Positions 12,293 to 22,811 of a stretch of 24,000 bases of DNA are shown piece after piece; the first letter of the stretch is position 1, and every line of letters begins with the position of its first letter. Origin of the DNA: an uncultured Clostridia bacterium (GTDB lineage Bacteria > Bacillota > Clostridia > DSM-8532); NCBI GenBank assembly GCA_942493335.1, contig OW818693.1, positions 1,566,644-1,590,643 of the forward strand, in the 5' to 3' direction. A model generated the notes under the pieces. It made no database searches, was not told where the DNA came from, and was given only the letters and a program-made list of their open reading frames with translations. The position numbers were made by a program, and so were the translations under genes.

Positions 12293-12958
12293 CTAATTTG
12301 TAACATTGCTAATATTTGTATCGGTAATTTCCCTATTTAGTTTGCTTTTTATCAAGTATACATACTGCGCAAACAGTTCTCTTGCATATGTTCTTGCGTA
12401 CTTGTCCATAGAATAAATCGATAAAACAATTGCAACAACTAGTGACAAACACACGTTAATTATGACACCTTTTAACACCACGACTACAATCAATATAAGA
12501 ATCAGAGAACTAGCAATCCCACGAGTAAGCCCATAACTCCCATTGAAGAAGTCTACTCTATCATGCAATGAAGCCGCTTTGATTTCGGCATAAATTTCTC
12601 TTGTGAATCCTATCCACGTTCTTTTGTTGACGAAGGGATTCTTCCCCTCCGACATAAAATGACTGTATATTGATTCTCTCCAATGCTCTGAGTAGGTATT
12701 GTTGCTCTCTATCATAATCCAGTCCGTTGGCCATCCTTTGCGGAACTTCCACCACATTTTCTCAAGAATATTCCCAACTGCTTGAACCAGATACCCGCAC
12801 GCATAGCTTATCACAAGCATAATACTAATGGCAGAAAACTGATTTTGGTTACTAAGCAACAGAGTGTTTACTTCCTGTATTACAAGGGATAGTCCAAATA
12901 ATGCCACCGCACCTGGGACAAATATACCCGCAAATTCGTAATAATCGAAGTTCCTCAT
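12293..12958 (-). CDS. Integral membrane protein, about 4 TM, unknown function (221 aa)
   Basis: I prefer ATG 12958 (GAGGTG 6 nt upstream) to the GTG at 12967. Two N-terminal TM segments (FAGIFVPGAVALFGLSLVI, ISIMLVISYACGYLVQAVG), a soluble core of about 90 aa, and two C-terminal TM segments (SSLILILIVVVVL, INVCLSLVVAIVLSIY). Confidence 0.6.
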   Translation of the reverse strand: MRNFDYYEFAGIFVPGAVALFGLSLVIQEVNTLLLSNQNQFSAISIMLVISYACGYLVQAVGNILEKMWWKFRKGWPTDWIMIESNNTYSEHWRESIYSHFMSEGKNPFVNKRTWIGFTREIYAEIKAASLHDRVDFFNGSYGLTRGIASSLILILIVVVVLKGVIINVCLSLVVAIVLSIYSMDKYARTYARELFAQYVYLIKSKLNREITDTNISNVTN

Positions 12959-13118
12959 AACAATCACCTCGTAATAAAGAAAATGCTTCTATACCCCATA
13001 CAGCGAAAGGTAAACTTTTCTTAACGGATATTACTTCGTTTCATATCAACTTCTCTCTGACTATATGAAGTCATTGGCGGCGAAACAACTTAAAATGATT
13101 AACTACCAGCATATATAA

Positions 13119-13447: not shown

Positions 13448-14530
13448 ATGAGCCAAAGAATCACAATCTACCCGCTTGGAAACGCCGAAACCATTTTATT
13501 AGAACTCTCAAACAATAAGAGAATTCTCATAGACTATGCTGCAATGCGCACTGAAGAAGAGGGCGATAAGCGTTATGACATCACCACAACGCTAGTAAAA
13601 TTTAGTTCTTTCGACGTTGTTATGTTTAGTCATGCCCATGAAGACCACGTTAAGGGTGCGAAAGACTTTTTTGAGTTTGACCATGCCGAAAAATACCAGG
13701 GTAATGGGCGTGTGAAAATCAAGGAACTTTGGGTTTCATCTGCGTTTGTGCTTGATTCTAGTGTCAGCGAAGATGCTCGTGTTATTCGCCAAGAAGCACG
13801 CCACCGCATAAAGAAGGGCTATGGGATAAAAGTGTTCGCTGAGCCCGATAAACTCGACCAATGGCTTATTGATAATGACCTGTCAACTGACGATAGTGAA
13901 AACTCCATAATCCACGCAGGAACATTACTAAAAAATAAAGACCACTGCCTTGGAGATGAGCTTGATGTATTTGTCCATGCACCGTTCTCAGAGGACGCCA
14001 ATGAGAGTGAAGATAGAAATGACCCATCAATTGTTTTGCAGCTTAGGTTAGCAAATTTTTCGCGGACTACAACCATCTTCGTTACAGGCGATGCTCCACA
14101 TGAAATTCTTGATAAAATAGTCGAGCGTTCTGAAAAGGCCGGTAATGATAGCTATCTATACTGGGATTTATATGACATACCACACCATTGCAGTCATACC
14201 GGGCTATCAGACGAACGTGGAGAGAAAGTAACAGATACTTCTGAAAATATCAAACGCCTATTATCCAATTATTCTAGAAAGAACGCCGTCATGATAGCTT
14301 CATGTCGGGCGTTTTGTGATGTAGGTGACGACGACCCTCTACCGCCTCATTTTCAAGCAAAAGATGCTTATATAAAATATAGTGGCGAGAAGGAGTTCAT
14401 CGCGACAATGGAATACCCTAATAAAGTCAATCCTCAACCGCTGGTTTACGAAATCGATATGTTTGGAATAACCAAGAAAGTAGTCACGGCAAGCCCCATT
14501 ATAACTTCGCCAGCACCGAGGGCAGGATAA
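13448..14530 (+). CDS. Metallo-beta-lactamase-fold hydrolase (360 aa) with a Pro/Ser-rich C-terminal tail ending in Gly
   Basis: N-terminal ITIYPLGNAETILLEL..RILIDYA strand pattern. H62-A-H-E-D-H67 (HxHxDH zinc motif). No signal peptide. C-terminus ...KKVVTASPIITSPAPRAG*. GAGGGGGG RBS 8 nt upstream. The stop overlaps the next start (TAATG). Confidence 0.85.
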   Translation: MSQRITIYPLGNAETILLELSNNKRILIDYAAMRTEEEGDKRYDITTTLVKFSSFDVVMFSHAHEDHVKGAKDFFEFDHAEKYQGNGRVKIKELWVSSAFVLDSSVSEDARVIRQEARHRIKKGYGIKVFAEPDKLDQWLIDNDLSTDDSENSIIHAGTLLKNKDHCLGDELDVFVHAPFSEDANESEDRNDPSIVLQLRLANFSRTTTIFVTGDAPHEILDKIVERSEKAGNDSYLYWDLYDIPHHCSHTGLSDERGEKVTDTSENIKRLLSNYSRKNAVMIASCRAFCDVGDDDPLPPHFQAKDAYIKYSGEKEFIATMEYPNKVNPQPLVYEIDMFGITKKVVTASPIITSPAPRAG

Positions 14531-16791
14531 TGGAAACTGATATCACCACTCCAATGTGCGAGATAACAAGGCAAATCCTTGTTGTTTTGTGTAGCGGTGG
14601 CCCATATCAGGCTACCCTGCAATGCATTGAGAATGTGAGACATGATAATACCTTAACAGACATGCTCAAAATCGAATACAATATCGCAGGATTGTGTCAG
14701 TATCCAAAATATGAAATCCGCCGAGTCGAGCCAATTACTATTTGGGTACAAGATGGACAGTTGCCGATAGTCGAAGCAAGAGAAGATTTCCCGATAGTGC
14801 CTCATCTTGTTGTCAATCGTGATGGCATGAAGACGCTCTGTTATACCGATTTCTCATATTCTGAGATAAAGCACAGACTGAACGGACAATTTATTGTGGA
14901 GTGCATCAACGAGTGGTTTGTAAGAACCGCTCGTGATGAACTTCACCGAGATGACCAGCCTCTTGAACCTTTCTTTTTCGGGGTCCAAGACATGATTGTC
15001 GTAAAGAAGCAGTTTTTTCATAATTATTGTGCAAAATTCAAAGAAATTCAACAAAACAATCGTCTGACATTACAGCAAGTCCCCGACGGTGTCAACGGGA
15101 CAGGGGTATACCTTTACGTTGTTATTAGGTTGAATATCCCACCTAGTAAAGATAACATTATCCATCATCCTCCGAAGTCATTAGGAGATTTATTTGCTCT
15201 TTTTTCATCGAAGCACATCGAACAGCAGCTTATGACCGAATTGTGGGAAATTCTCAAAATAAGGCTTAATAAGAAAAATTTTCAATCTACATTCGTCAAT
15301 ATGTCTTTTCTGTTTTGTTTACCCTGCATCATCTTTTTGCATATCCCACAAAGAAGAAAAAAAACAAGTATTATCGAAACATCAGATAATCGTGTGTTTA
15401 TAACCAACGGTCACAGATTCGGCGATATTCTCAATGATTTTGGTATCCATCGACAGATAATTGTTGGCGAAAAAAAAAGTCAAGAATATAAGTTAACCAG
15501 TACCGGCAAAAATTATCACGGCGAAAACATCAGCATCAGTCAACTCAATCTTCACTTTGAAACAACGCCTCCACTTGCCAGAATATATAGCGGAATCAAT
15601 GAAGGCTATCAACATAAATATTTCGTACTCATCGGTGCAGGAGCCTTAGGCTCTCAGGTGTATGTTAATTGTTTACGCTCAGGTTTTGGGAAATGGGCAA
15701 TTATTGATTTCGATGTTTTTTTGCCCCACAACCTTACTCGGCATGTTCTTTCACAATCTTCAGTTGGACAACCGAAGGCAACAGAGCTAGTGCAATATGC
15801 TAATTCTGTCATTGAGAATCCTGAAGTATGCGCTTATGTAGCTGACGTTCTTGACCATCATAGCGCCGACATTCTTATGACCTTAGCAACAGCCGATGTG
15901 ATAGTAGACGTTTCCACATCGGTCGCGGTGGAACGAATGCTTGCCATAGACACGAAAACAAAAGCACGATGTATTTCGCTCTTCTTAAATCCACGAGGCG
16001 ATTGTCTTGTTATGCTTTGTGAAGACTCGGAGCGAACCATTACACTCGACCAATTGGAGATGCAGTTGAACGCAATACTGATTAACGAGACTGATTTGGA
16101 GAATTTCTATTGTTTGCCAACAACTATAGCATACGCTACATCTTGTCGCGACATAACTACTACTATTCCGCAAGAAAACATTGCATTAACTGGCGCCGTC
16201 GCAAGCAAAGAGTTGAAATTAGCTCAAGAAAACATGTCATCAAATATCGTTGTCTGGAAAATAAGCAACGATGGAATTGCAGCACAAAGATATGCTGGCG
16301 AACGATGGCATGAAATATCTTGTGGTGATTGGCGAGTGTTGATGCGCTACTCCTTGCTGCATTCTCTCCAAGAAAAGAGAATCGAACGTCAACCGAATGA
16401 AACCGGCGGTGTTCTTATTGGTAATTATGACTTTTCACGTAAGATAATTTATGTCGTCGACATGATTTTTTCACCAAGTGACAGTATTGAGGTCCCTTCC
16501 TCATATATCCGAGGCTGCAAAAACTTACCTGAGCAGATAAATCAAATATCAAAAAGAACATTTAACGGTCTTTTCTATATCGGGGAATGGCATAGCCACC
16601 CCAGCCAGAGCACTGCGATGAGCTGTGCTGATGAAAAGCTTCTCCGCACAATTAGCGATGTTTGTAAAGCCAACTGTCTACTCGGTGCTATGATTATTTG
16701 CGGGAGTAATAGCAATTTATCTTTTTATCTTCGTGATGATACTATGGTTTTTTCTGAGACGTTCATATTCGACAATACTGGACAACGATAA
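14530..16791 (+). CDS. E2(UBC)-like / E1 (ThiF-MoeB) / JAB triple-domain protein, 753 aa
   Basis: E2-like: DFPIVPHLVVNRDGMKTLCYTD, a His-x11-Cys pattern like HPN...G.iCl of UBC folds, with candidate Cys104 (nt 14839-14841). E1: YFVLIGAGALGSQVYVNCLRSGFGKWAIIDFDVFLPHNLTRH (GxGxxG plus D.D...NL.R). Candidate E1 Cys539 (ATSCRD). JAB: E624 (NETGGVLIG) and H688-S-H690-x7-S698-x2-D701 (EWHSHPSQSTAMSCAD), the canonical JAMM spacing. Confidence 0.9.
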   Translation: METDITTPMCEITRQILVVLCSGGPYQATLQCIENVRHDNTLTDMLKIEYNIAGLCQYPKYEIRRVEPITIWVQDGQLPIVEAREDFPIVPHLVVNRDGMKTLCYTDFSYSEIKHRLNGQFIVECINEWFVRTARDELHRDDQPLEPFFFGVQDMIVVKKQFFHNYCAKFKEIQQNNRLTLQQVPDGVNGTGVYLYVVIRLNIPPSKDNIIHHPPKSLGDLFALFSSKHIEQQLMTELWEILKIRLNKKNFQSTFVNMSFLFCLPCIIFLHIPQRRKKTSIIETSDNRVFITNGHRFGDILNDFGIHRQIIVGEKKSQEYKLTSTGKNYHGENISISQLNLHFETTPPLARIYSGINEGYQHKYFVLIGAGALGSQVYVNCLRSGFGKWAIIDFDVFLPHNLTRHVLSQSSVGQPKATELVQYANSVIENPEVCAYVADVLDHHSADILMTLATADVIVDVSTSVAVERMLAIDTKTKARCISLFLNPRGDCLVMLCEDSERTITLDQLEMQLNAILINETDLENFYCLPTTIAYATSCRDITTTIPQENIALTGAVASKELKLAQENMSSNIVVWKISNDGIAAQRYAGERWHEISCGDWRVLMRYSLLHSLQEKRIERQPNETGGVLIGNYDFSRKIIYVVDMIFSPSDSIEVPSSYIRGCKNLPEQINQISKRTFNGLFYIGEWHSHPSQSTAMSCADEKLLRTISDVCKANCLLGAMIICGSNSNLSFYLRDDTMVFSETFIFDNTGQR

Positions 16792-17361: not shown

Positions 17362-17669
17362 ACACCAAGCATAGCGGAGTATAGTCAAATCTCGCACGAA
17401 CGGCACACTCCCTTGTTCAACCTTCCAAAACCACCATGCTCCTTCATGTCTCCCTCATCGCACATTTCTCCACATTTTTCGCATTCATACCACCTGACCC
17501 AAAACGAATCAAACTGCATGTCACTAGATGACGCATCAAAGTGTTGGCGCATCTCAGCCTTTGCCTGTTCATGCTCAAAATCATCGTTATGATGTCCTAT
17601 GCCACCACATCGCGTCATTTGAGGCTCTCGCTGAGCATATTGTCGACGAATAGCTTGAAATGTCTCTGT
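17362..17669. repeat. Direct repeat copy A (3' two-thirds of the zinc-ribbon gene plus about 20 nt of downstream flank)
   Basis: Alignable by eye with 22962-23268 in the same orientation. Roughly three quarters of positions are identical, for example gagtatagtcaaatctc, caaccttccaaaa, caccatgctccttcatgtct, gctgagcatattgtcgacgaat. Confidence 0.7.
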
Positions 17670-17867
17670 AGCCTTCTTGGAATCGAGCTTCTCCTGTTCA
17701 TCATCTTCAGCACTCAAGATTGCGTCATTGTCAAGCCGGTCTATTACCGTCGATGCGAGTCGTTCTTGCTCACGGGCTTCACGTTCTTTTGACTCGTGAA
17801 GCCTCTGCTCAAGTTCTTTATTCAGCCGGTCTCTTTCCCGCTTATCTCGTTCTGCTTTTTCTACCAA
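17385..17867 (-). CDS. Coiled-coil plus C-terminal zinc-ribbon protein (paralog A), 160 aa
   Basis: The charged N-terminus (ERDKRERDRLNKELEQRLHESKEREAREQERL) is predicted coiled-coil. C-terminus WYECEKCGEMCDEGDMKEHGGFGRLNKGVCRSCEI (CxxC...CxxC). TTG start. The reading frame stays open upstream without a start, and a 55-codon ORF with a good SD (ATG 18025, ends 17861) is in another frame, so the 5' end is possibly frameshifted. Confidence 0.6.
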   Translation of the reverse strand: MVEKAERDKRERDRLNKELEQRLHESKEREAREQERLASTVIDRLDNDAILSAEDDEQEKLDSKKATETFQAIRRQYAQREPQMTRCGGIGHHNDDFEHEQAKAEMRQHFDASSSDMQFDSFWVRWYECEKCGEMCDEGDMKEHGGFGRLNKGVCRSCEI

Positions 17868-18258: not shown

Positions 18259-18299
18259 TAATATTGGCAATGAAATCAGTTGTGTTGCAGGAGGTTTGT

Positions 18300-18908
18300 A
18301 TGAATCAAAAGAATCCGCTGTTCTCGTATCGAACTGCTTGTCCTGATAACATTCCGGTGACAGAACAAGAGGTAGCCAGACACTACGACAGCAGAACCGG
18401 TCTTTGGTATGAGGCGGGTGGTGTTCCCGTTATTGAGAAATTCGTGAACTCACGTGTGAGAGATAAGAGGGCTGAAACCCACACAACAGACTCCCGTGAG
18501 GGTATCGACAGAGGCGAAACATCCTCGCCTCCGCCTCGTTATCTGAACGATACTCGAAGAACACAAGCTGGACCAGACGAAACCCTTATAACCGAAACCA
18601 GAGAAAGCATTGACCGAAGTGAAGGTTCTGTTCACTACGAAGACTTTGTGGCTCTAAAAGGACCTGATGAAACGCTGATTACAAAGACAAGGGAAGGTAT
18701 CGACACAAGTGAATCCTCTTCCTTTGTCCCATTTGTTGCAGAAGAATACAAAATCAAGGCATCCGGCTCTGCTGAAACGCTTATAACGCGTTCGAGAGAA
18801 GGTATTGACACAACCGAAAGAAGCAACGAAATACATGACTATATGTTTCAAACCATCCAAACATTCACGCGTGAATCGACCGACAGAAACGAGGAACAAT
18901 CGGAATGA
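18300..18908 (+). CDS. Multi-core graspetide-type precursor protein (202 aa) with five repeats of a T/S- and E/D-rich motif
   Basis: I prefer ATG 18300 (AGGAGG 7 nt upstream) to the TTG at 18204. Repeats: AETHTTDSREGIDRGE, DETLITETRESIDRSE, DETLITKTREGIDTSE, AETLITRSREGIDTTE, QTIQTFTRESTDRNEE. ATGA overlap with the ATP-grasp gene start. Confidence 0.75.
   Translation: MNQKNPLFSYRTACPDNIPVTEQEVARHYDSRTGLWYEAGGVPVIEKFVNSRVRDKRAETHTTDSREGIDRGETSSPPPRYLNDTRRTQAGPDETLITETRESIDRSEGSVHYEDFVALKGPDETLITKTREGIDTSESSSFVPFVAEEYKIKASGSAETLITRSREGIDTTERSNEIHDYMFQTIQTFTRESTDRNEEQSE
18471..18896 (+). repeat. In-frame coding repeats (5 units; 18471-18518, 18576-18623, 18666-18713, 18771-18818, 18849-18896)
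   Basis: Consensus (D/A)ET(L/H)(I/T)Tx(T/S)RE(G/S)IDx(S/T/G)E. The three central units share GAAAC(C/G)CT(T/G)AT(A/T)AC at the DNA level. Spacing is 30-35 codons. Confidence 0.8.
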
Positions 18909-19849
18909 TAACGTGTCCGAAGGTTCTCTTCGTAACAAATCGGGAGGATTTCGCCATCGACTTCCTCCTATATCGGTTCAAAGACAAAGGGATACCCTAT
19001 CTACGTATCAACTCTGAGGATATCACGGAATGTGATATAACCTGGGAATACGGTAAAGAAGTAACCTTTTCATATAGCGGAGACTCTTATGATTTAGAGG
19101 CTGTCAAATCGGTATACTTTCGTCGCGCTCCTTCTATCTTTCCACAAGGGGTTGACCCGACGGACACTCCTTTTCTTAGGGGTGAAAGACGTGATTTCTT
19201 CGAAGGGTTGTATATGACCCTTGAAGCTAGATGGGTGAATCCTCTTTTCAGCACCTACATAGCCGAAAAGAAACTATATCAGCTCAACGTAGCACGGCAA
19301 GTTGGCTTTACCATCCCAAAATCGATAGTCACAAATAGACCACAAGACATCCTCAGCTTTCTTTCGAACGGCCCCAGTATCATGAAACCTATCTCGCATG
19401 GTCTTCAGGTGAAGGTTGGCGAAGCTTACTCAATCTATACATCGGTTATCCAAGCAGCCGATTTCAAGGACCTTGAGAACACCTTTGAAGCACCCGTTCT
19501 GGTACAAACAAGAATTCCAAACACTTGTGATATAAGGGCTACAGTCGTTGGCAACAAGGTATTCGCTGTCGAGATACACCAAGAAGGCGAACCAAATGTT
19601 GATTGGAGAGTGCTCGAAGCAACCAAGCGTTATGTTCTTCACGAATTACCGCCTGATATCATATCCATGATGCTTAACCTGCATAAATCATTAGGGCTTG
19701 TCTACTCAGCCTTCGATTTCATCCTAACACCAGACGGAGAGTATGTGTTCCTTGAAACGAATCCTGCTGGAGAATGGGTTTGGATAGAAAGAGAGACAGG
19801 TCTGCCTATAGCAGAAGCCTTGTGCTCGGAGTTGATTGATGAAAAATAA
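18905..19849 (+). CDS. ATP-grasp peptide macrocyclase (MdnC/MvdD-like, RiPP maturase family), 314 aa
   Basis: VLFVTNREDFAIDFLLYRFKDKGIPYLRINSED (N-terminal precursor-binding domain pattern). DIRATVVGNKVFAVEI...VDWR. GLVYSAFDFILTPDGEYVFLETNPAGEWVWIERETGLPIAEALCSELI closely matches the FLE.NP.GqW.W.E..TG.pI signature of microviridin-type ligases. Confidence 0.9.
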   Translation: MITCPKVLFVTNREDFAIDFLLYRFKDKGIPYLRINSEDITECDITWEYGKEVTFSYSGDSYDLEAVKSVYFRRAPSIFPQGVDPTDTPFLRGERRDFFEGLYMTLEARWVNPLFSTYIAEKKLYQLNVARQVGFTIPKSIVTNRPQDILSFLSNGPSIMKPISHGLQVKVGEAYSIYTSVIQAADFKDLENTFEAPVLVQTRIPNTCDIRATVVGNKVFAVEIHQEGEPNVDWRVLEATKRYVLHELPPDIISMMLNLHKSLGLVYSAFDFILTPDGEYVFLETNPAGEWVWIERETGLPIAEALCSELIDEK

Positions 19850-20861
19850 GCAAAAAACTGTAGATTTGGGTTCCACACAAACTGAGGTGCAACCAAAAAT
19901 CGCTATGGCTGAGAAAAAGCCAATGGTAGCAGCAACAGAACAGAAAGACCCGGTTTGGCAAGACGAGTATCTATCGCCGAACATAGAAAGTAAACCACTA
20001 ACGGTCAAACTAATTTGGAAAAGTATAAAAGACTTTTTCATATTTCTTCTTCATGCAATATCCCCACATGCATATCCAACGCCACCAAAACTAGCTCTCC
20101 CCGATATAACATCAGATGATGAGCATTTAGCCTTCGATATGTGTAAGTCGCTGTATGAAGCATCACATTCAAGAATCGATAATCTTGAAGATAAATCGAT
20201 GAAGTTGCTCCCTTATATCACAGCCCTCTTTGCCTTCTATTCATTTGCTTATCTAAACATAGCGAATATCCCCACAAAGGTATCTTTGTTGACAGCAATG
20301 CTTTTTTTGCTTCTATCTATCATCATTTCCTTTCGTTGTGTTAGCGTAAAAGGGCGTAGAGCCATATTCATCCCTACCATATACGATATGGACGAAAAAC
20401 CACCAAAAGAGCTTTTTAAGAGAAACACAATATCAAAGGGTTACCTGAAATCTGCAATCATAAACCAGTCCGTGGCTGATAACACCGCTGATATCCTACG
20501 CGCTGCAAGAAGCACCTTAACACTCGCTCTGATTATTGGTTTAGTCGGTTGTATGGTTGGTGTTATAGGATTGTTTGGTGCAGAAAAAACTAGTCAGGAC
20601 GTAAAAATCCTTCAACAAAATGAGACAACCATATTGGTGAAAAGCGTTCAAGATGAGGCAATAGCCATACGAGGGTTAACCGAAAGAATAACAAGCAAGT
20701 ATGAGATACAACAGGACAGCGAGAATGGCAAGCTCGAGCGAAAGAACCAGGAGTTGTCAGATGCCCTAGATACCACGACCAAGAAGGTCGATAAACTAGA
20801 AAGTGAACTCAAAAACCTCTTGGAAAAACTCAACACAGAACCTGTTCCAGCAACAAAGTAA
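19839..20861 (+). CDS. Multi-TM membrane protein with C-terminal coiled coil (340 aa)
   Basis: ATG 19839 overlaps the ATP-grasp 3' end by 11 nt, with GGAG about 9 nt upstream. TM segments LLPYITALFAFYSFAYLNI, VSLLTAMLFLLLSIIISF, LTLALIIGLVGCMVGVIGLFG. The segment before TM1 (SHSRIDNLEDKSMKLL) is reminiscent of DUF5706/SLATT-type TM effector N-termini (weak). C-terminal heptad-like ELSDALDTTTKKVDKLESELKNLLEKL. Confidence 0.75.
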   Translation: MKNKQKTVDLGSTQTEVQPKIAMAEKKPMVAATEQKDPVWQDEYLSPNIESKPLTVKLIWKSIKDFFIFLLHAISPHAYPTPPKLALPDITSDDEHLAFDMCKSLYEASHSRIDNLEDKSMKLLPYITALFAFYSFAYLNIANIPTKVSLLTAMLFLLLSIIISFRCVSVKGRRAIFIPTIYDMDEKPPKELFKRNTISKGYLKSAIINQSVADNTADILRAARSTLTLALIIGLVGCMVGVIGLFGAEKTSQDVKILQQNETTILVKSVQDEAIAIRGLTERITSKYEIQQDSENGKLERKNQELSDALDTTTKKVDKLESELKNLLEKLNTEPVPATK

Positions 20862-20886
20862 GGGTATGCGGCGAAGCCGCACACCC
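20862..20886 (+). terminator. GC-rich hairpin immediately after the operon stop codon
   Basis: gggtatgcggc-gaa-gccgcacaccc. 11-bp stem with one mismatch and a 3-nt loop. The trailing T-tract is poor. Confidence 0.5.
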
Positions 20887-21398
20887 TCAATTGCATATTC
20901 TTGCTGTCCTCCTGTTCACCAACCAGATACATCAAATCTGTATCTTAAGAAGAATGTTTCTGTCGCTGAGTTGAAAGCCATATCTGCTAAAGCATTTGGG
21001 TTTATCTCGAAGTCCCAATCCTGCTTGCCTATTATGATGTATACGTATATATCTATCGTACCAGTTAAGAAATATCTTCTGTGGTCAAGCCTCATCCAAG
21101 CAGAAAAGCGTGCATTACTCATCTATTGTTCAGACTCAATGGCCATATCGTCTACCAACACCCATTTATAGCCATCACTTGTCTACCTCATATGATATAC
21201 TGCTCCATAGAGTAATGTAATAAAATCTCAGAATTTGTATATGATGACTAGATATTGATATACAATCAGAGACGTTTCGGAAGCTATTCGAGGACAAGAA
21301 GTTCTACGAAGCCGTCATGGGAGCTGTTGGGAGAGATGTGTATAAGTATTTGATGTCATAGTAACAAAGAGGCTCACTAATTATAGGAGGAGGCAGAA

Positions 21399-22367
21399 AT
21401 GAGAAAAGCACTTTGCGTCGGAATTGACAATTATGAAACAATCAACGACCTGCATGGATGTGTAAATGATGCGAACGGAGTAAAGGCTGTGCTTGACCGG
21501 AACGGTGATAGCACATTGAATTTTCAGACCCGCTTGATGTGTTCGACAAGTGAGAACTCGTATATAAGAAGAGGCGATTTGAAGGACGCAATTGAAGAGT
21601 TATTCAGAAGTGAATCTGAGATAGCGATTCTGTATTATGCAGGGCATGGCTCATATGATGAAAATGGCGGCTATTTATGCACTAGCGAAGTGAGTCGTTC
21701 TGATGACGGTTTATCTCTTGACGATATTATGGGAATAGTGTCACGGTCAAAAGCTCAAAACAAAGTGATTATACTCGATAGTTGCCATAGTGGGCTTGTG
21801 GGAACATCAAATTTGATGCCAAATTATTCTGTATTGCATAACGGAACGACTATTCTGGCCGCATGTGATGAAAAGCAATACGCATCGGAGGCAATGGGGC
21901 ATGGTGTATTTACGACTTTGCTTATAGAAGCGCTTTATGGCGGCGCAATGAATCTTTTAGGCGAGGTGTCACCTGGTAGCATATACTCATACATTGACCG
22001 CTCACTTGGTGGCTGGGAGCAACGTCCAGTGTTTAAGGCAAACATCAAATCCTTTGTGTCCCTAAGAAAAAATTCTCCTCCCATTCCAATAGAAGAATTA
22101 CGGCGCATAAAGGAATTTTTTCCCTCCCCATATGAGGAGTTCTCACTTGACCCCACATACGAGCCGGACAAACACGAGGCTGATATGCAGGATGTAAACA
22201 AAGAACACGAAGCCGTATTCGCAATACTGCAAAAGTATGTTAAGCTGAATTTGGTTGTGCCTGAAGGCGCAGAGCATATGTACTATGCCGCATTAAACCA
22301 CAAGTCTTGCAAATTAACTTCACAAGGTCAGCATTATTGGAATCTTGTTACAAAAGAAACAATATGA
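21399..22367 (+). CDS. Caspase-like (peptidase C14) protease with an uncharacterised C-terminal domain, 322 aa
   Basis: KALCVGIDNYETINDLHGCVNDANGV..., ILYYAGHGS (catalytic His) and VIILDSCHSG (catalytic Cys) form the caspase/metacaspase His-Cys dyad. Residues from about 200 to 322 have no motif I recognise. AGGAGGAGG RBS. Confidence 0.9.
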   Translation: MRKALCVGIDNYETINDLHGCVNDANGVKAVLDRNGDSTLNFQTRLMCSTSENSYIRRGDLKDAIEELFRSESEIAILYYAGHGSYDENGGYLCTSEVSRSDDGLSLDDIMGIVSRSKAQNKVIILDSCHSGLVGTSNLMPNYSVLHNGTTILAACDEKQYASEAMGHGVFTTLLIEALYGGAMNLLGEVSPGSIYSYIDRSLGGWEQRPVFKANIKSFVSLRKNSPPIPIEELRRIKEFFPSPYEEFSLDPTYEPDKHEADMQDVNKEHEAVFAILQKYVKLNLVVPEGAEHMYYAALNHKSCKLTSQGQHYWNLVTKETI

Positions 22368-22424
22368 AATCACCGACTCACCAAGAGGCAAAGGGACAAA
22401 TCAACGAAAGGAATGGTATAGACA

Positions 22425-22811
22425 ATGGTGAAGAAGAACGTATTCATTAGTCATCGCTGGGATTATGAAGAAGACTACGAAAAAATTAGTGCTGTGCTAG
22501 ACCGGACAAAATACGACGTGTCAAATCGCTCGGTTGAGAGTTCGGACCCTCTAGTTGGCACAAAAAAAGAAGTTACAGTCGCTATAAAGGCGAAGATTGA
22601 CAGTGCAAGTGTTGTGCTTGCACCCGCTCGTCCAGCAGCGGTCACATCTGGAAGCATGGGGCGTAAGGAAATTGATTATGCCGTAAGCAAAAAAAAGAAA
22701 ATCATAGCTGTCGATACTGGGACCACGCAATCCGTAGCTAGCTATTGGAAAGAAAACGACATCCCTGTAGTCACATGCCGTAAAGACAGTGTCGAGAATG
22801 CAATAGGATAG
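22425..22811 (+). CDS. TIR-like domain protein (DUF1863 / ThsB-like), 128 aa
   Basis: KNVFISHRWDYEEDYEKI start typical of TIR-like/DUF1863. IDSASVVLAP...SGSMGRKEIDYAVSKKKKIIAV matches the i..s..vivl...S.w...Ei..a...gkpiigv pattern. Lies 57 nt downstream of the caspase-like gene. Weak SD. Confidence 0.6.
   Translation: MVKKNVFISHRWDYEEDYEKISAVLDRTKYDVSNRSVESSDPLVGTKKEVTVAIKAKIDSASVVLAPARPAAVTSGSMGRKEIDYAVSKKKKIIAVDTGTTQSVASYWKENDIPVVTCRKDSVENAIG

What the first reader, a model, noticed from the sequence alone, without database searches (positions are those of the whole stretch)
18300..20861. Precursor, ATP-grasp and membrane/coiled-coil protein are translationally coupled and lack the usual graspetide accessory genes, inside a defence island
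The overlaps are ATGA at 18905-18908 and 11 nt at 19839-19849, and a GC hairpin closes the unit at 20862-20886. As I recall them, graspetide clusters typically carry an ABC transporter/peptidase or a GNAT. Here the only third gene is a 3-TM protein with a long coiled-coil tail and no transporter motifs. With R-M, E1/JAB and caspase/TIR modules as neighbours, an alternative to a secreted natural product is possible. The cross-linked repeat protein could be an intracellular protease trap or sensor coupled to a membrane effector, which would be a defence-type function not described for ATP-grasp RiPP enzymes to my knowledge.
Basis: inference. Interest (0 to 1): 0.75.

Follow-up and report, generated by a model that had tools for sequence, protein, structure and literature searches.

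The report
Mobile graspetide cassette with membrane partner
This is a three-gene unit for a ring-cross-linked repeat peptide of an already catalogued (thuringinin-like) type, but it travels on mobile elements, sits among anti-phage genes, and its obligatory membrane partner faintly resembles a known phage-defence pore protein, so it is a reasonable but unproven defence candidate.

Summary
Three co-oriented genes, with overlapping stop and start codons, are closed by a strong hairpin.

- **Precursor (18300-18908):** a leader plus five TxxTx[T/S]RExxDxxE cores.
- **Ligase (18905-19849):** an MvdD/MdnC-type ATP-grasp enzyme.
- **Membrane protein (19839-20861):** three TM helices and a coiled coil.

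The unit sits between a 6A-MBL system, a type I R-M system and a caspase+TIR pair.

The trio is strictly conserved. About 30 loci from Clostridia, Ignavibacteria, Bacteroidota and other groups keep precursor(s), ligase and membrane gene adjacent. None has an ABC-like exporter nearby.

The architecture is not new. The ligase falls in the published "thuringinin branch", and its core motif is already catalogued. [quoted passage not shown]

Three things go beyond the papers I could search:
- The cassette is cargo of Tn7-like transposons, integrase islands and defence islands.
- It shows 95% DNA identity across genera.
- 18 of 101 membrane-partner relatives weakly match PycTM (Pycsar pore effector) models. 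The window protein itself does not.

Best reading: a mobile, multivalent graspetide cassette whose partner handles the peptide at the membrane. A defence role is possible (about 0.2) but untested.

The parts
18290..18294 (+). GGAGG ribosome-binding site 5 nt upstream of the precursor ATG
   Evidence: Read directly from the sequence.
18300..18908 (+). Precursor gene (202 aa). It has a leader (aa 1 to about 57, with the conserved PLFSYR and GLW..G.P.I.KF motifs) followed by five core repeats.
   Evidence: Translation and motif scan. Homologous precursors sit upstream of the ligase in 31 loci. The same core type appears in published precursor clusters 2737/6621/6751.
18477..18518 (+). Core 1: THTTDSREGIDRGE
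18582..18623 (+). Core 2: TLITETRESIDRSE
18672..18713 (+). Core 3: TLITKTREGIDTSE
18777..18818 (+). Core 4: TLITRSREGIDTTE
18852..18893 (+). Core 5: TIQTFTRESTDRNE. It lies at the C-terminus, as in homologues.
18905..19849 (+). Graspetide-type ATP-grasp macrocyclase (314 aa), with a pre-ATP-grasp MvdD domain plus a RimK-like ATP-grasp domain
   Evidence: Pfam RimK 1e-5, above its gathering cut-off, and ATPgraspMvdD 1e-4, below its cut-off. NCBIfam RiPP-maturase models hit at 1e-63 to 1e-26, all below family cut-offs. Solved relatives are MdnB, AMdnB, MdnC, CdnC and PsnB. ATP-grasp residues are invariant in 18 homologues.
19839..20861 (+). Membrane partner (340 aa). It has an N-terminal cytoplasmic region, a TM1-TM2 hairpin (about aa 120-169), a basic loop, TM3 (about 224-247) and a C-terminal coiled-coil helix (259-333) that is probably extracytoplasmic.
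   Evidence: AlphaFold2 model with pLDDT 87. Hydropathy and charge counts. The family has 164 representatives and lies directly downstream of the ligase in all related loci. There is a weak family-level similarity to PycTM.
20861..20887 (+). GC-rich hairpin closing the unit, with no T-tract
   Evidence: -20 kcal/mol, z = -5.0. The terminator scan called it only on the - strand.
13448..16791 (+). Neighbour, not part of the unit: 6A-MBL anti-phage system (an MBL-fold protein plus an E2/E1/JAB Cap2_3 fusion)
   Evidence: NCBIfam NF058524 at 325 bits (cut-off 220) and NF058523 at 518 bits (cut-off 320).
21399..22811 (+). Neighbour, not part of the unit: caspase-like protease plus a small TIR protein, the gene content of type IV Thoeris
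   Evidence: Pfam Peptidase_C14 1e-17, TIR_2 and ThsB_TIR. PADLOC caspase and ThsB. Type IV Thoeris is described as TIR plus caspase-like in PMC13069673.
4900..10745 (-). Neighbour, not part of the unit: type I restriction-modification operon (hsdR, hsdS, hsdM)

Best explanation
This is a horizontally mobile, self-contained cassette for a multivalent graspetide (omega-ester peptide) of the thuringinin branch.

**Shown by sequence**
- The ribosome makes a 202-aa precursor with a conserved leader and five TxxTx[T/S]RExxDxxE cores.
- The adjacent gene encodes an MvdD/MdnC-type ATP-grasp ligase.
- A family-specific three-TM protein is always encoded immediately after the ligase.

**Inferred from characterised relatives (thuringinin, plesiocin, microviridin)**
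- The ligase docks on the leader.
- Using ATP, it esterifies the Thr/Ser hydroxyls of each core to the downstream Glu/Asp carboxylates. This gives two or three nested rings per core.
- The product would be a protease-resistant string of constrained loops, each displaying an invariant Arg. That is the design of a standard-mechanism inhibitor of Arg-specific serine, or possibly caspase-like, proteases.

**Inferred from topology and the lack of any exporter**
- The membrane partner has a cytoplasmic N-domain, a conserved basic cytoplasmic face (K119, R166, N209), a PycTM-like TM core and an extracytoplasmic coiled coil.
- It receives the modified peptide at the membrane and lets it out or holds it at the envelope, acting as a dedicated ATP-independent, pore- or holin-like conduit.

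The whole unit is accessory 'conflict' cargo of transposons, integrative elements and defence islands.

My confidence that this is a thuringinin-type graspetide cassette is about 0.9. My confidence in the release or handling role of the partner is about 0.4-0.45.
For: **Ligase identity.** Pfam, NCBIfam and PDB relatives all point to a graspetide ATP-grasp.

**Core motif.** It is conserved in 31 loci, as tandem cores or as 2-3 single-core genes. It aligns position for position with the thuringinin core TTIVTETIEQADPDE shown in the PMC8939145 supplement.

**Branch assignment.** The Brevibacillus thermoruber homologue is 55% identical. The PM1 assembly that carries it, together with Psychrobacillus, is listed under Branch_Thuringinin, and TREGIDRSE-type precursors are catalogued as clusters 2737/6621.

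**Partner conservation.**
- The partner gene lies directly downstream in all about 30 related loci.
- This includes loci whose partner is only 21-24% identical.
- Shorter partners of Pseudomonas and Croceicoccus loci with LTKT..E.DDD-type cores still match the family profile.

**No exporter.** No ABC-like ORF lies within 6 kb in 0 of 30 loci, against 8 of 30 in other graspetide clades.

[quoted passage not shown] All characterised graspetides are protease inhibitors.

**Topology.** The TM2-TM3 loop has 11 K/R against 6 D/E. One variant has an OmpA-like C-terminal domain.

**Mobility.** Cassettes are Tn7-like cargo, share 95% nucleotide identity across genera, and sit in integrase, IS or prophage contexts.
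Against: - No chemistry was observed. Ring number and connectivity are by analogy only.
- No known transporter fold or motif is present in the partner.
- No leader peptidase or conserved double-glycine site exists, so a released 'mature' peptide is not evident.
- The partner's only recognisable similarity is to a cell-killing pore effector (PycTM), not to an exporter.
- The contexts are those of defence or mobile cargo rather than natural-product clusters.
- From memory, not checked here: in the published thuringinin and plesiocin work the ligase modified its precursor without the membrane protein. The partner is therefore not needed for catalysis, and its role is open.
Confidence: 0.5

Rival explanations
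1. **Anti-phage (abortive-infection type) module.** The PycTM-like membrane protein is a pore-forming effector. The ATP-grasp-cross-linked peptide is its regulator in one of two ways. It could be a bait or trap whose engagement by a phage or host protease releases the effector. Or it could be a ligand made on infection that opens the effector, a peptide counterpart of the cyclic-nucleotide signal of Pycsar.
For: - 18, 17 and 4 of 101 family members match the three PADLOC PycTM models (best 1.6e-6). The Pseudomonas partner matches almost the full model (3e-5, positions 21-149 of 160). No other TM effector model collects more than 3 hits.
- PycTM kills by forming a membrane pore (PMC11224242).
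- Known defence genes lie within 10 kb in the window.
- They also lie near L056 (SRA-HNH, DUF4011 helicase), L065 (MmeI-type R-M, E2/E1), L070 (SIR2+HerA, AbiEii), L071 (SMODS+SLATT_4) and L017 (SMODS-type nucleotidyltransferase by eye; two SMODS hits in the pooled flanks).
- Further R-M, HEPN, mad2 and SMODS hits occur among 143 flanking ORFs.
- Cassettes are Tn7-like cargo.
- There is no exporter and no peptidase.
Against: - None of the three window proteins hits any PADLOC model. The window partner itself shows no PycTM hit even at E<=1.
- Pfam PycTM hits are only 'weak' precomputed ones and were not reproduced.
- A bona fide SLATT_4 protein does not match the family profile.
- Fold searches gave nothing.
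- No cassette was found in IMG/VR viral contigs.
- The context sample is small and has no formal background statistic. Several loci have ordinary housekeeping neighbours.
- Diversified cores and single-core precursors look more like an inhibitor repertoire than a single ligand.
- Graspetides are stable, which suits a labile antitoxin poorly.
Confidence: 0.2
2. **Intracellular protease inhibitor serving the mobile element (counter-defence or safeguard).** The cross-linked Arg-loops stay in the cell. They block Arg/Lys-specific proteases of host immune systems, such as caspase-like, CHAT or trypsin-like effectors. The membrane protein only anchors or sequesters the inhibitor.
For: - Arg is invariant in the centre of every core.
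- All characterised graspetides are protease inhibitors (PMC8939145).
- Cassettes ride on transposons, ICE-like regions with ArdC, and integrase islands.
- In the window, a caspase-like protease gene starts 538 nt downstream.
- No export machinery is present.
Against: - The obligatory, translationally coupled membrane partner with an extracytoplasmic tail has no obvious role in this scheme.
- The caspase/TIR pair is not conserved next to the cassette in other loci.
- Protease specificity is inferred from one residue only.
Confidence: 0.1
3. **Biosynthetic scaffold, chaperone or self-protection protein.** The membrane protein plays a role comparable to the membrane scaffold role proposed for MdnE in microviridin biosynthesis, or to the partner proteins recently shown to stabilise graspetide synthetases. 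It neither transports nor kills.
For: - Start and stop codons overlap or lie within about 20 nt in all loci, which suggests stoichiometric co-production with the ligase.
- Partner-protein-dependent graspetide synthetases exist (PMC13097080).
- A membrane scaffold has been proposed for microviridin (reference 17 in PMC8939145).
Against: - Partner proteins described so far are soluble (a PPIase-like protein, and a partner of the tailoring oxygenase).
- From memory, the thuringinin and plesiocin ligases work without the membrane protein.
- The most conserved part of the partner is the TM core, not a soluble docking domain.
Confidence: 0.1

Closest known systems
Thuringinin biosynthetic cluster (Bacillus thuringiensis; omega-ester peptide group 3)
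   Same: - A single ATP-grasp ligase.
- A multi-core precursor (thuringinin is trivalent, with two esters per repeat; PMC12291112).
[quoted passage not shown]
- The core residues align: TTIVTETIEQADPDE against ETLITETRESIDRSE.
- The ligase clade is listed in Branch_Thuringinin.
   Different: - There are five cores, with an invariant Arg where thuringinin has Ile, and Ser-Glu in place of Asp-Glu at the end.
- The partner carries an N-terminal extension and a long C-terminal coiled coil.
- The product and its ring pattern are uncharacterised.
- I could not obtain the thuringinin membrane protein sequence to compare directly.
Precursor clusters 2737/6621/6751 and membrane 'cluster 18' of Makarova et al. 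2022 (PMC8939145)
   Same: - Psychrobacillus precursors have TLVTETREGIDRSE or TYTRESIDRSE cores.
- The paper describes an uncharacterised membrane protein specific to thuringinin loci that lack transporters.
   Different: - The paper proposes transport and does not mention defence islands, mobile-element cargo or PycTM-like similarity (0 occurrences of 'defense').
- Identity of the window partner with 'cluster 18' is inferred through the Pseudomonas-type partner, not checked directly, because the supplement is truncated.
Pycsar PycTM effector
   Same: Part of the partner family matches PycTM profiles over the juxtamembrane helix plus the TM hairpin. Both are small membrane proteins found in defence islands.
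   Different: - There is no cyclic-nucleotide-binding domain and no cyclase neighbour.
- The window protein itself does not reach any threshold.
- The partner is linked to an ATP-grasp and a peptide instead.
Plesiocin cluster (group 2)
   Same: - A multivalent (tetravalent) ester-cross-linked precursor.
- A single ligase, PsnB, which is a solved relative at 9e-9.
[quoted passage not shown]
   Different: The core motif is different and the ligase is distant. I did not test whether its membrane protein is homologous.
Microviridin cluster (mdnA-E)
   Same: Leader-guided ATP-grasp macrocyclisation. MdnB and MdnC are the closest solved structures, at 8.5e-42 and 2.7e-30.
   Different: Microviridin uses two ligases, a GNAT and an ABC transporter/peptidase. 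None of those accessory genes is present here or in any orthologous locus.

Membership tests
Graspetide (omega-ester peptide) biosynthetic cluster | An ATP-grasp ligase of the MvdC/MvdD/MdnB/MdnC type with a pre-ATP-grasp domain | tested here: met
   Pfam RimK is above its cut-off and ATPgraspMvdD is below its cut-off. NCBIfam RiPP maturase models hit at 1e-63 to 1e-26, below their equivalog or subfamily cut-offs. PDB relatives are MdnB, AMdnB, MdnC, CdnC and PsnB.
Graspetide (omega-ester peptide) biosynthetic cluster | An adjacent precursor with a conserved leader and a core in which hydroxyl donors (Thr/Ser) precede acidic acceptors (Glu/Asp) | tested here: met
   Five TxxTx[T/S]RExxDxxE cores. 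The leader and core are conserved in 31 loci.
Graspetide (omega-ester peptide) biosynthetic cluster | Side-chain ester or amide macrocycles actually installed | not testable with these tools
   This needs mass spectrometry of the co-expressed precursor and ligase.
Thuringinin branch (Lee groups 3-6; Makarova Branch_Thuringinin) | The ligase belongs to that clade | tested here: met
   The 55%-identical homologue P0016 is from Brevibacillus thermoruber. The PM1 assembly that carries it and Psychrobacillus FJAT-21963 are listed as Branch_Thuringinin. This is transitive evidence; no tree was built here.
Thuringinin branch (Lee groups 3-6; Makarova Branch_Thuringinin) | Repeated core units in the precursor | tested here: met
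   Two to five cores per locus.
Thuringinin branch (Lee groups 3-6; Makarova Branch_Thuringinin) | The branch-specific uncharacterised membrane protein ('cluster 18') next to the ligase | tested here: inconclusive
   A partner is always present. It is profile-related to the partners of the Pseudomonas and Croceicoccus plasmid loci (E 3e-10 and 3e-7 in a small search). P. aeruginosa group-5 ligases are listed in Branch_Thuringinin. Cluster 18 sequences themselves were not available.
Pycsar (PycC + PycTM) | An effector TM domain matching PycTM profiles | tested here: inconclusive
   The window protein has no hit at E<=1. In the family, 18 of 101 members hit at E<=0.01, best 1.6e-6. The current Pfam PycTM model was not matched.
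Pycsar (PycC + PycTM) | A cyclic-nucleotide-binding domain on the effector and an adjacent pyrimidine cyclase | tested here: not met
   No such domain was found. The neighbour is an ATP-grasp in every locus.
Any catalogued anti-phage system (PADLOC-DB v2) | Component proteins match the system's models | tested here: not met
   There were 0 hits for the precursor, ligase and partner at E<=0.01.
RiPP export/maturation set (PCAT/ABC transporter, C39 peptidase, GNAT) | A transporter or peptidase gene in the cluster and a double-glycine cleavage site in the leader | tested here: not met
   No such genes are present. A crude Walker-A plus signature-motif scan found 0 of 30 loci with an ABC-like ORF within 6 kb. 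The 'GG' in the window leader falls in a G.P motif that is not GG in homologues.

The most novel reading that the evidence does not exclude
The precursor, ATP-grasp and PycTM-like trio is a new kind of immune (or counter-immune) module. In it, an enzymatically cross-linked ribosomal peptide takes the place of the nucleotide second messenger or sensor. Modification of the Arg-loop peptide, or its capture by a protease, would gate a PycTM-related membrane pore and abort infection. This would link RiPP chemistry to abortive-infection effectors for the first time.
Probability: 0.17. Interest if true: 0.9.

Novelty: new member of a known kind. Interest (0 to 1): 0.5.

Why it matters
The biological role of the whole thuringinin/plesiocin branch of graspetides, and of its obligatory membrane protein, is unknown. 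The products have been made only in heterologous hosts.

This work shows that the trio is strictly conserved, lacks exporters, moves on Tn7-like and integrative elements, and clusters with R-M, CBASS-like, SIR2-HerA, Thoeris-like and 6A-MBL genes. It also shows that the partner family resembles a pore-forming defence effector.

That turns an orphan 'natural product' cluster into a compact, directly testable three-gene candidate for a conflict system. If the defence reading is wrong, the cassette is still a clean model for ATP-independent release of a RiPP and a source of multivalent Arg-directed protease inhibitors.

Tried and rejected
- **Pfam, NCBIfam and PADLOC on the window partner.** Nothing meaningful was found. 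Family-wide Pfam gave no consistent family. Family-wide NCBIfam gave only 10 weak hits to TIGR04402 'mobilome CxxCx(11)CxxC protein'.
- **General SLATT membership.** Rejected, because a genuine SLATT_4 protein (L071) and the presumed SLATT-like ORF next to the L017 nucleotidyltransferase do not match the family profile.
- **Profile-profile test against PycTM.** I could not obtain PycTM sequences. Paper supplements were not held or contained none.
- **Phage carriage.** No relative was found in IMG/VR viral contigs. The partner gave no match in PLSDB plasmids by tblastn. Plasmid hits to the ligase are distant clades.
- **Source organism.** An exact look-up of the window proteins gave no contig record or name.
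- **Second word-indexed search with the family alignment.** It returned only 7 proteins.
- **Direct check of Makarova 'cluster 18'.** The loci table is truncated in the held copy.
- **Canonical terminator.** The hairpin has no T-tract on the + strand.


Full report
**1. The observation**

Three co-oriented ORFs occupy 18300-20861. The precursor stop overlaps the ligase start as ATGA at 18905-18908. The ligase stop (19847-19849) overlaps the ATG of the third gene (19839) by 11 nt. GGAGG and GGAG ribosome-binding sites precede the first and third starts.

There is one caveat on the third start. Homologues begin about 38 residues further in, and the first 35 residues of the model have low confidence. 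The 11-nt overlap therefore rests on the ATG at 19839, which is also the start of the database protein P0121.

A GC-rich hairpin at 20861-20887 is far more stable than shuffled sequence (-20 kcal/mol, z = -5.0). It lacks a T-tract on the + strand.

**2. The three genes**

The precursor is 202 aa. It has a leader (PLFSYR ... GLWYEAGGVPVIEKF) followed by five copies of TxxTx[T/S]RExxDxxE, the last at the C-terminus.

The second protein is a RiPP-type ATP-grasp:
- Pfam RimK matches above its cut-off, and the MvdD pre-ATP-grasp domain matches below its cut-off.
- NCBIfam 'ATP-grasp ribosomal peptide maturase' models match at 1e-63 to 1e-26, all below their family-specific cut-offs.
- The closest solved structures are MdnB, AMdnB, MdnC, CdnC and PsnB.

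The third protein matches no transporter or other family. A 101-sequence alignment gave an AlphaFold2 model with pLDDT 87. It shows a long helix running into TM1, then TM2, a loop with a small hairpin, a helix running into TM3, and a helix spanning residues 259-333.

The TM2-TM3 loop is net basic, with 11 K/R against 6 D/E. One family variant replaces the coiled coil with two more TM helices and what looks by eye like an OmpA-type domain; no family search was run on it. I therefore infer that the N-terminus is cytoplasmic and the C-terminal tail is outside.

**3. Conservation**

The ligase has 143 relatives at E<=1e-5, and the next closest after the self-match is 59-60% identical.

A scan of one genome per species returned 54 loci. 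In all 20 testable loci among L001-L019 and L054, the partner lies immediately downstream. In those loci the ligase is 40-55% identical over its full length, except L054, which matches only the C-terminal 74 residues at 47%. They come from Clostridia, Ignavibacteria, Bacteroidota and a PVC-group bacterium. L016 ends at the contig edge. In L020-L053 (28-35% identity; mainly Myxococcota, plus Actinomycetota and other phyla) the partner is absent.

With the extra contigs, the trio is intact in about 30 loci. Core-bearing precursors were found upstream in 31 of 35 loci.

Bacteroidota-type cassettes (for example L006-L009, L012-L015; L010 is an exception) split the cores over two or three single-core genes.

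The partner family has 164 representatives at 50% clustering. Members only 21-24% identical to the window protein are again fused by overlap to an MvdD-type ligase, behind precursors with GETxLTxTREGVDQSE repeats.

Shorter, tail-less partners follow the ligase in Pseudomonas aeruginosa and Croceicoccus plasmid loci with LTKT...E.DDD-type cores. They still match the family profile over the TM core.

**4. What is already known**

- Makarova et al. 2022 list Psychrobacillus and Brevibacillus thermoruber ligases under 'Branch_Thuringinin'. The B. thermoruber homologue is 55% identical to the window ligase.
- They also catalogue TREGIDRSE-type precursors as clusters 2737/6621.
- The thuringinin core TTIVTETIEQADPDE aligns residue for residue with ETLITETRESIDRSE at all six candidate linking positions.
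- The same paper describes 'cluster 18', uncharacterised membrane proteins specific to thuringinin loci that lack transport systems, and suggests transport.
- Thuringinin is trivalent, with two esters per repeat.
- A 2026 survey of more than 20,000 graspetides still lists many groups whose co-occurring proteins match no Pfam or TIGRFAM model, and it does not mention defence.

So the 'missing accessory genes' are the norm for this branch, not an anomaly.

**5. The partner and PycTM**

The window partner alone hits nothing in PADLOC. Across the family the picture differs:
- 18, 17 and 4 of 101 members hit the three PycTM models, with the best at 1.6e-6.
- No other TM-effector model collects more than three hits.
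- The Pseudomonas partner aligns to positions 21-149 of a 160-position PycTM model at 3e-5.
- Precomputed Pfam marks show PycTM for three homologues: P0124, P0275 and, marked weak, the C. formicaceticum partner.

Evidence against a firm link:
- The current Pfam model did not reproduce those hits.
- A genuine SLATT_4 protein does not match the family profile.
- Fold searches were uninformative.

I take this as probable but unproven distant homology of the TM core to PycTM, the pore-forming Pycsar effector. The protein is not a Pycsar component, because it has no nucleotide-binding domain and no cyclase neighbour.

**6. Context**

In the window the cassette lies between a type I R-M system, a 6A-MBL system scoring above NCBIfam cut-offs, and a caspase-like plus TIR pair. 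That pair has the gene content of type IV Thoeris.

Contexts elsewhere:

| Locus | Neighbourhood |
|---|---|
| C. formicaceticum (L055) | Cassette directly follows tnsA-tnsB-tniB-tniQ of a Tn7-like element |
| Peribacillus (L056) | SRA-HNH and a DUF4011 helicase |
| Brevibacillus (L058) | Integrase/excisionase island with IS21 copies |
| Bacteroidales (L060) | Between a prophage-like block and an integrase |
| L065 | MmeI-type R-M, an E2/E1 pair and ArdC |
| L067 | Excisionase, RadC and UmuDC |
| L069 | D5-type primase and resolvase |
| L070 | SIR2+HerA, AbiEii and a SNF2 helicase |
| L071 (one of the closest homologues, 60% identical) | Integrase, SMODS+SLATT_4 and a Macro protein |

Among 143 flanking ORFs from 16 further loci, the recurrent families are transposases or integrases, TnsD, type I and II methylases, REase-ARP, SMODS, HEPN and mad2. 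Housekeeping genes occur as well.

Caloramator and Geosporobacter share 95% nucleotide identity over 11.7 kb that includes the cassette. Lutispora shares 95.6% identity starting just upstream of the precursor.

A crude motif scan found no ABC-like ORF within 6 kb in 0 of 30 cassette loci, against 8 of 30 loci of other graspetide clades.

No copy was found in IMG/VR.

**7. Mechanism**

Three facts are shown by sequence and conservation: a leader-plus-cores precursor, a graspetide ligase, and an obligatory membrane partner, all made from one tightly packed operon.

Inferred from characterised relatives: leader-guided, ATP-dependent esterification of Thr/Ser to Glu/Asp. This would give two or three nested rings per core, and therefore a protease-resistant array of loops with an invariant central Arg.

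The step I consider most likely for the partner (about 0.4-0.45) is handling or release of the modified peptide at the membrane by an ATP-independent, pore-like protein. This reconciles the transport proposal in the literature with the PycTM-like core.

The rivals, with their probabilities, are:
- A defence module in which the partner is the killing effector and the peptide its regulator or bait (about 0.2).
- An intracellular Arg-directed protease inhibitor serving the mobile element (about 0.1).
- A scaffold or chaperone role (about 0.1).

**8. Verdict**

The cassette is a new member of a known, catalogued but functionally orphan kind, so the 'unusual architecture' argument does not hold.

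Three points are not in the literature I could search: the mobile-element and defence-island ecology, the total absence of exporters, and the PycTM-like signal. They keep the defence idea alive without proving it.

Interest is moderate. It is a compact, well-defined candidate worth a phage-challenge and membrane-toxicity test.

Noticed in passing
window 21399-22811: A caspase-like protease (322 aa) is followed by a small TIR protein (128 aa). This matches the gene content described for type IV Thoeris (TIR plus caspase-like). The caspase hits NCBIfam 'caspase, EACC1-associated type' below its cut-off.
   Followed up: partly
window 13448-16791: A complete 6A-MBL anti-phage system is present: an MBL-fold protein plus an E2/E1/JAB (Cap2_3) fusion. 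Both score above the NCBIfam equivalog cut-offs.
   Followed up: yes
window 12293-12967 (- strand): A 224-aa ORF with a weak PADLOC hit (1e-5) to Csx27, a membrane protein associated with type VI-B CRISPR. No Pfam family matched.
   Followed up: no
window 17385-17867 (- strand): A 160-aa ORF diverges from the cassette. Its N-terminal half is rich in Glu, Lys and Arg, and its C-terminus carries Cys pairs (CEKCGEMC ... CRSCE). It matched no family in Pfam, PADLOC or NCBIfam.
   Followed up: no
L001 3393-15102 vs L002; L001 9286-15003 vs L019: The cassette and its flanks are about 95% identical at the DNA level between Caloramator, Geosporobacter and Lutispora. In the first two the shared block includes Tn7-like genes. 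In the third, identity starts just upstream of the precursor. Two downstream genes, a 163-aa membrane protein and a 392-aa protein ending in a CxCGSGKKFKNCC motif, travel with the cassette.
   Followed up: partly
L006-L009, L012-L015, L060, L065 (Bacteroidota-type cassettes): Instead of one multi-core precursor, these loci have two or three tandem genes. Each encodes a leader plus a single C-terminal core (...TREAxDxSExS).
   Followed up: partly
protein P0148 (477 aa, partner family): This variant of the membrane partner replaces the coiled coil with two extra TM helices and what looks by eye like an OmpA-type C-terminal domain (no family search was run). That implies the C-terminus of the family is outside the cytoplasm.
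   Followed up: partly
partner family alignment A3: Ten of 101 members weakly match NCBIfam TIGR04402 'mobilome CxxCx(11)CxxC protein' (best 7.6e-6). I did not determine which region aligns or what the relationship means.
   Followed up: no
L071 68-3013 and L017 5157-6882: In L071 a SMODS nucleotidyltransferase and a SLATT_4 gene sit within 3 kb of the cassette. In L017 a nucleotidyltransferase ORF that looks SMODS-like by eye, and an overlapping unidentified ORF, start just after it. L071 also has an integrase at the island edge and a Macro-domain gene downstream.
   Followed up: partly
window 18300-18908 and all homologous precursors: An Arg between the third hydroxyl residue and the first acidic residue of every core (T-R-E) is essentially invariant across phyla. 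The other non-linking positions vary. It may be the specificity (P1-like) residue.
   Followed up: no
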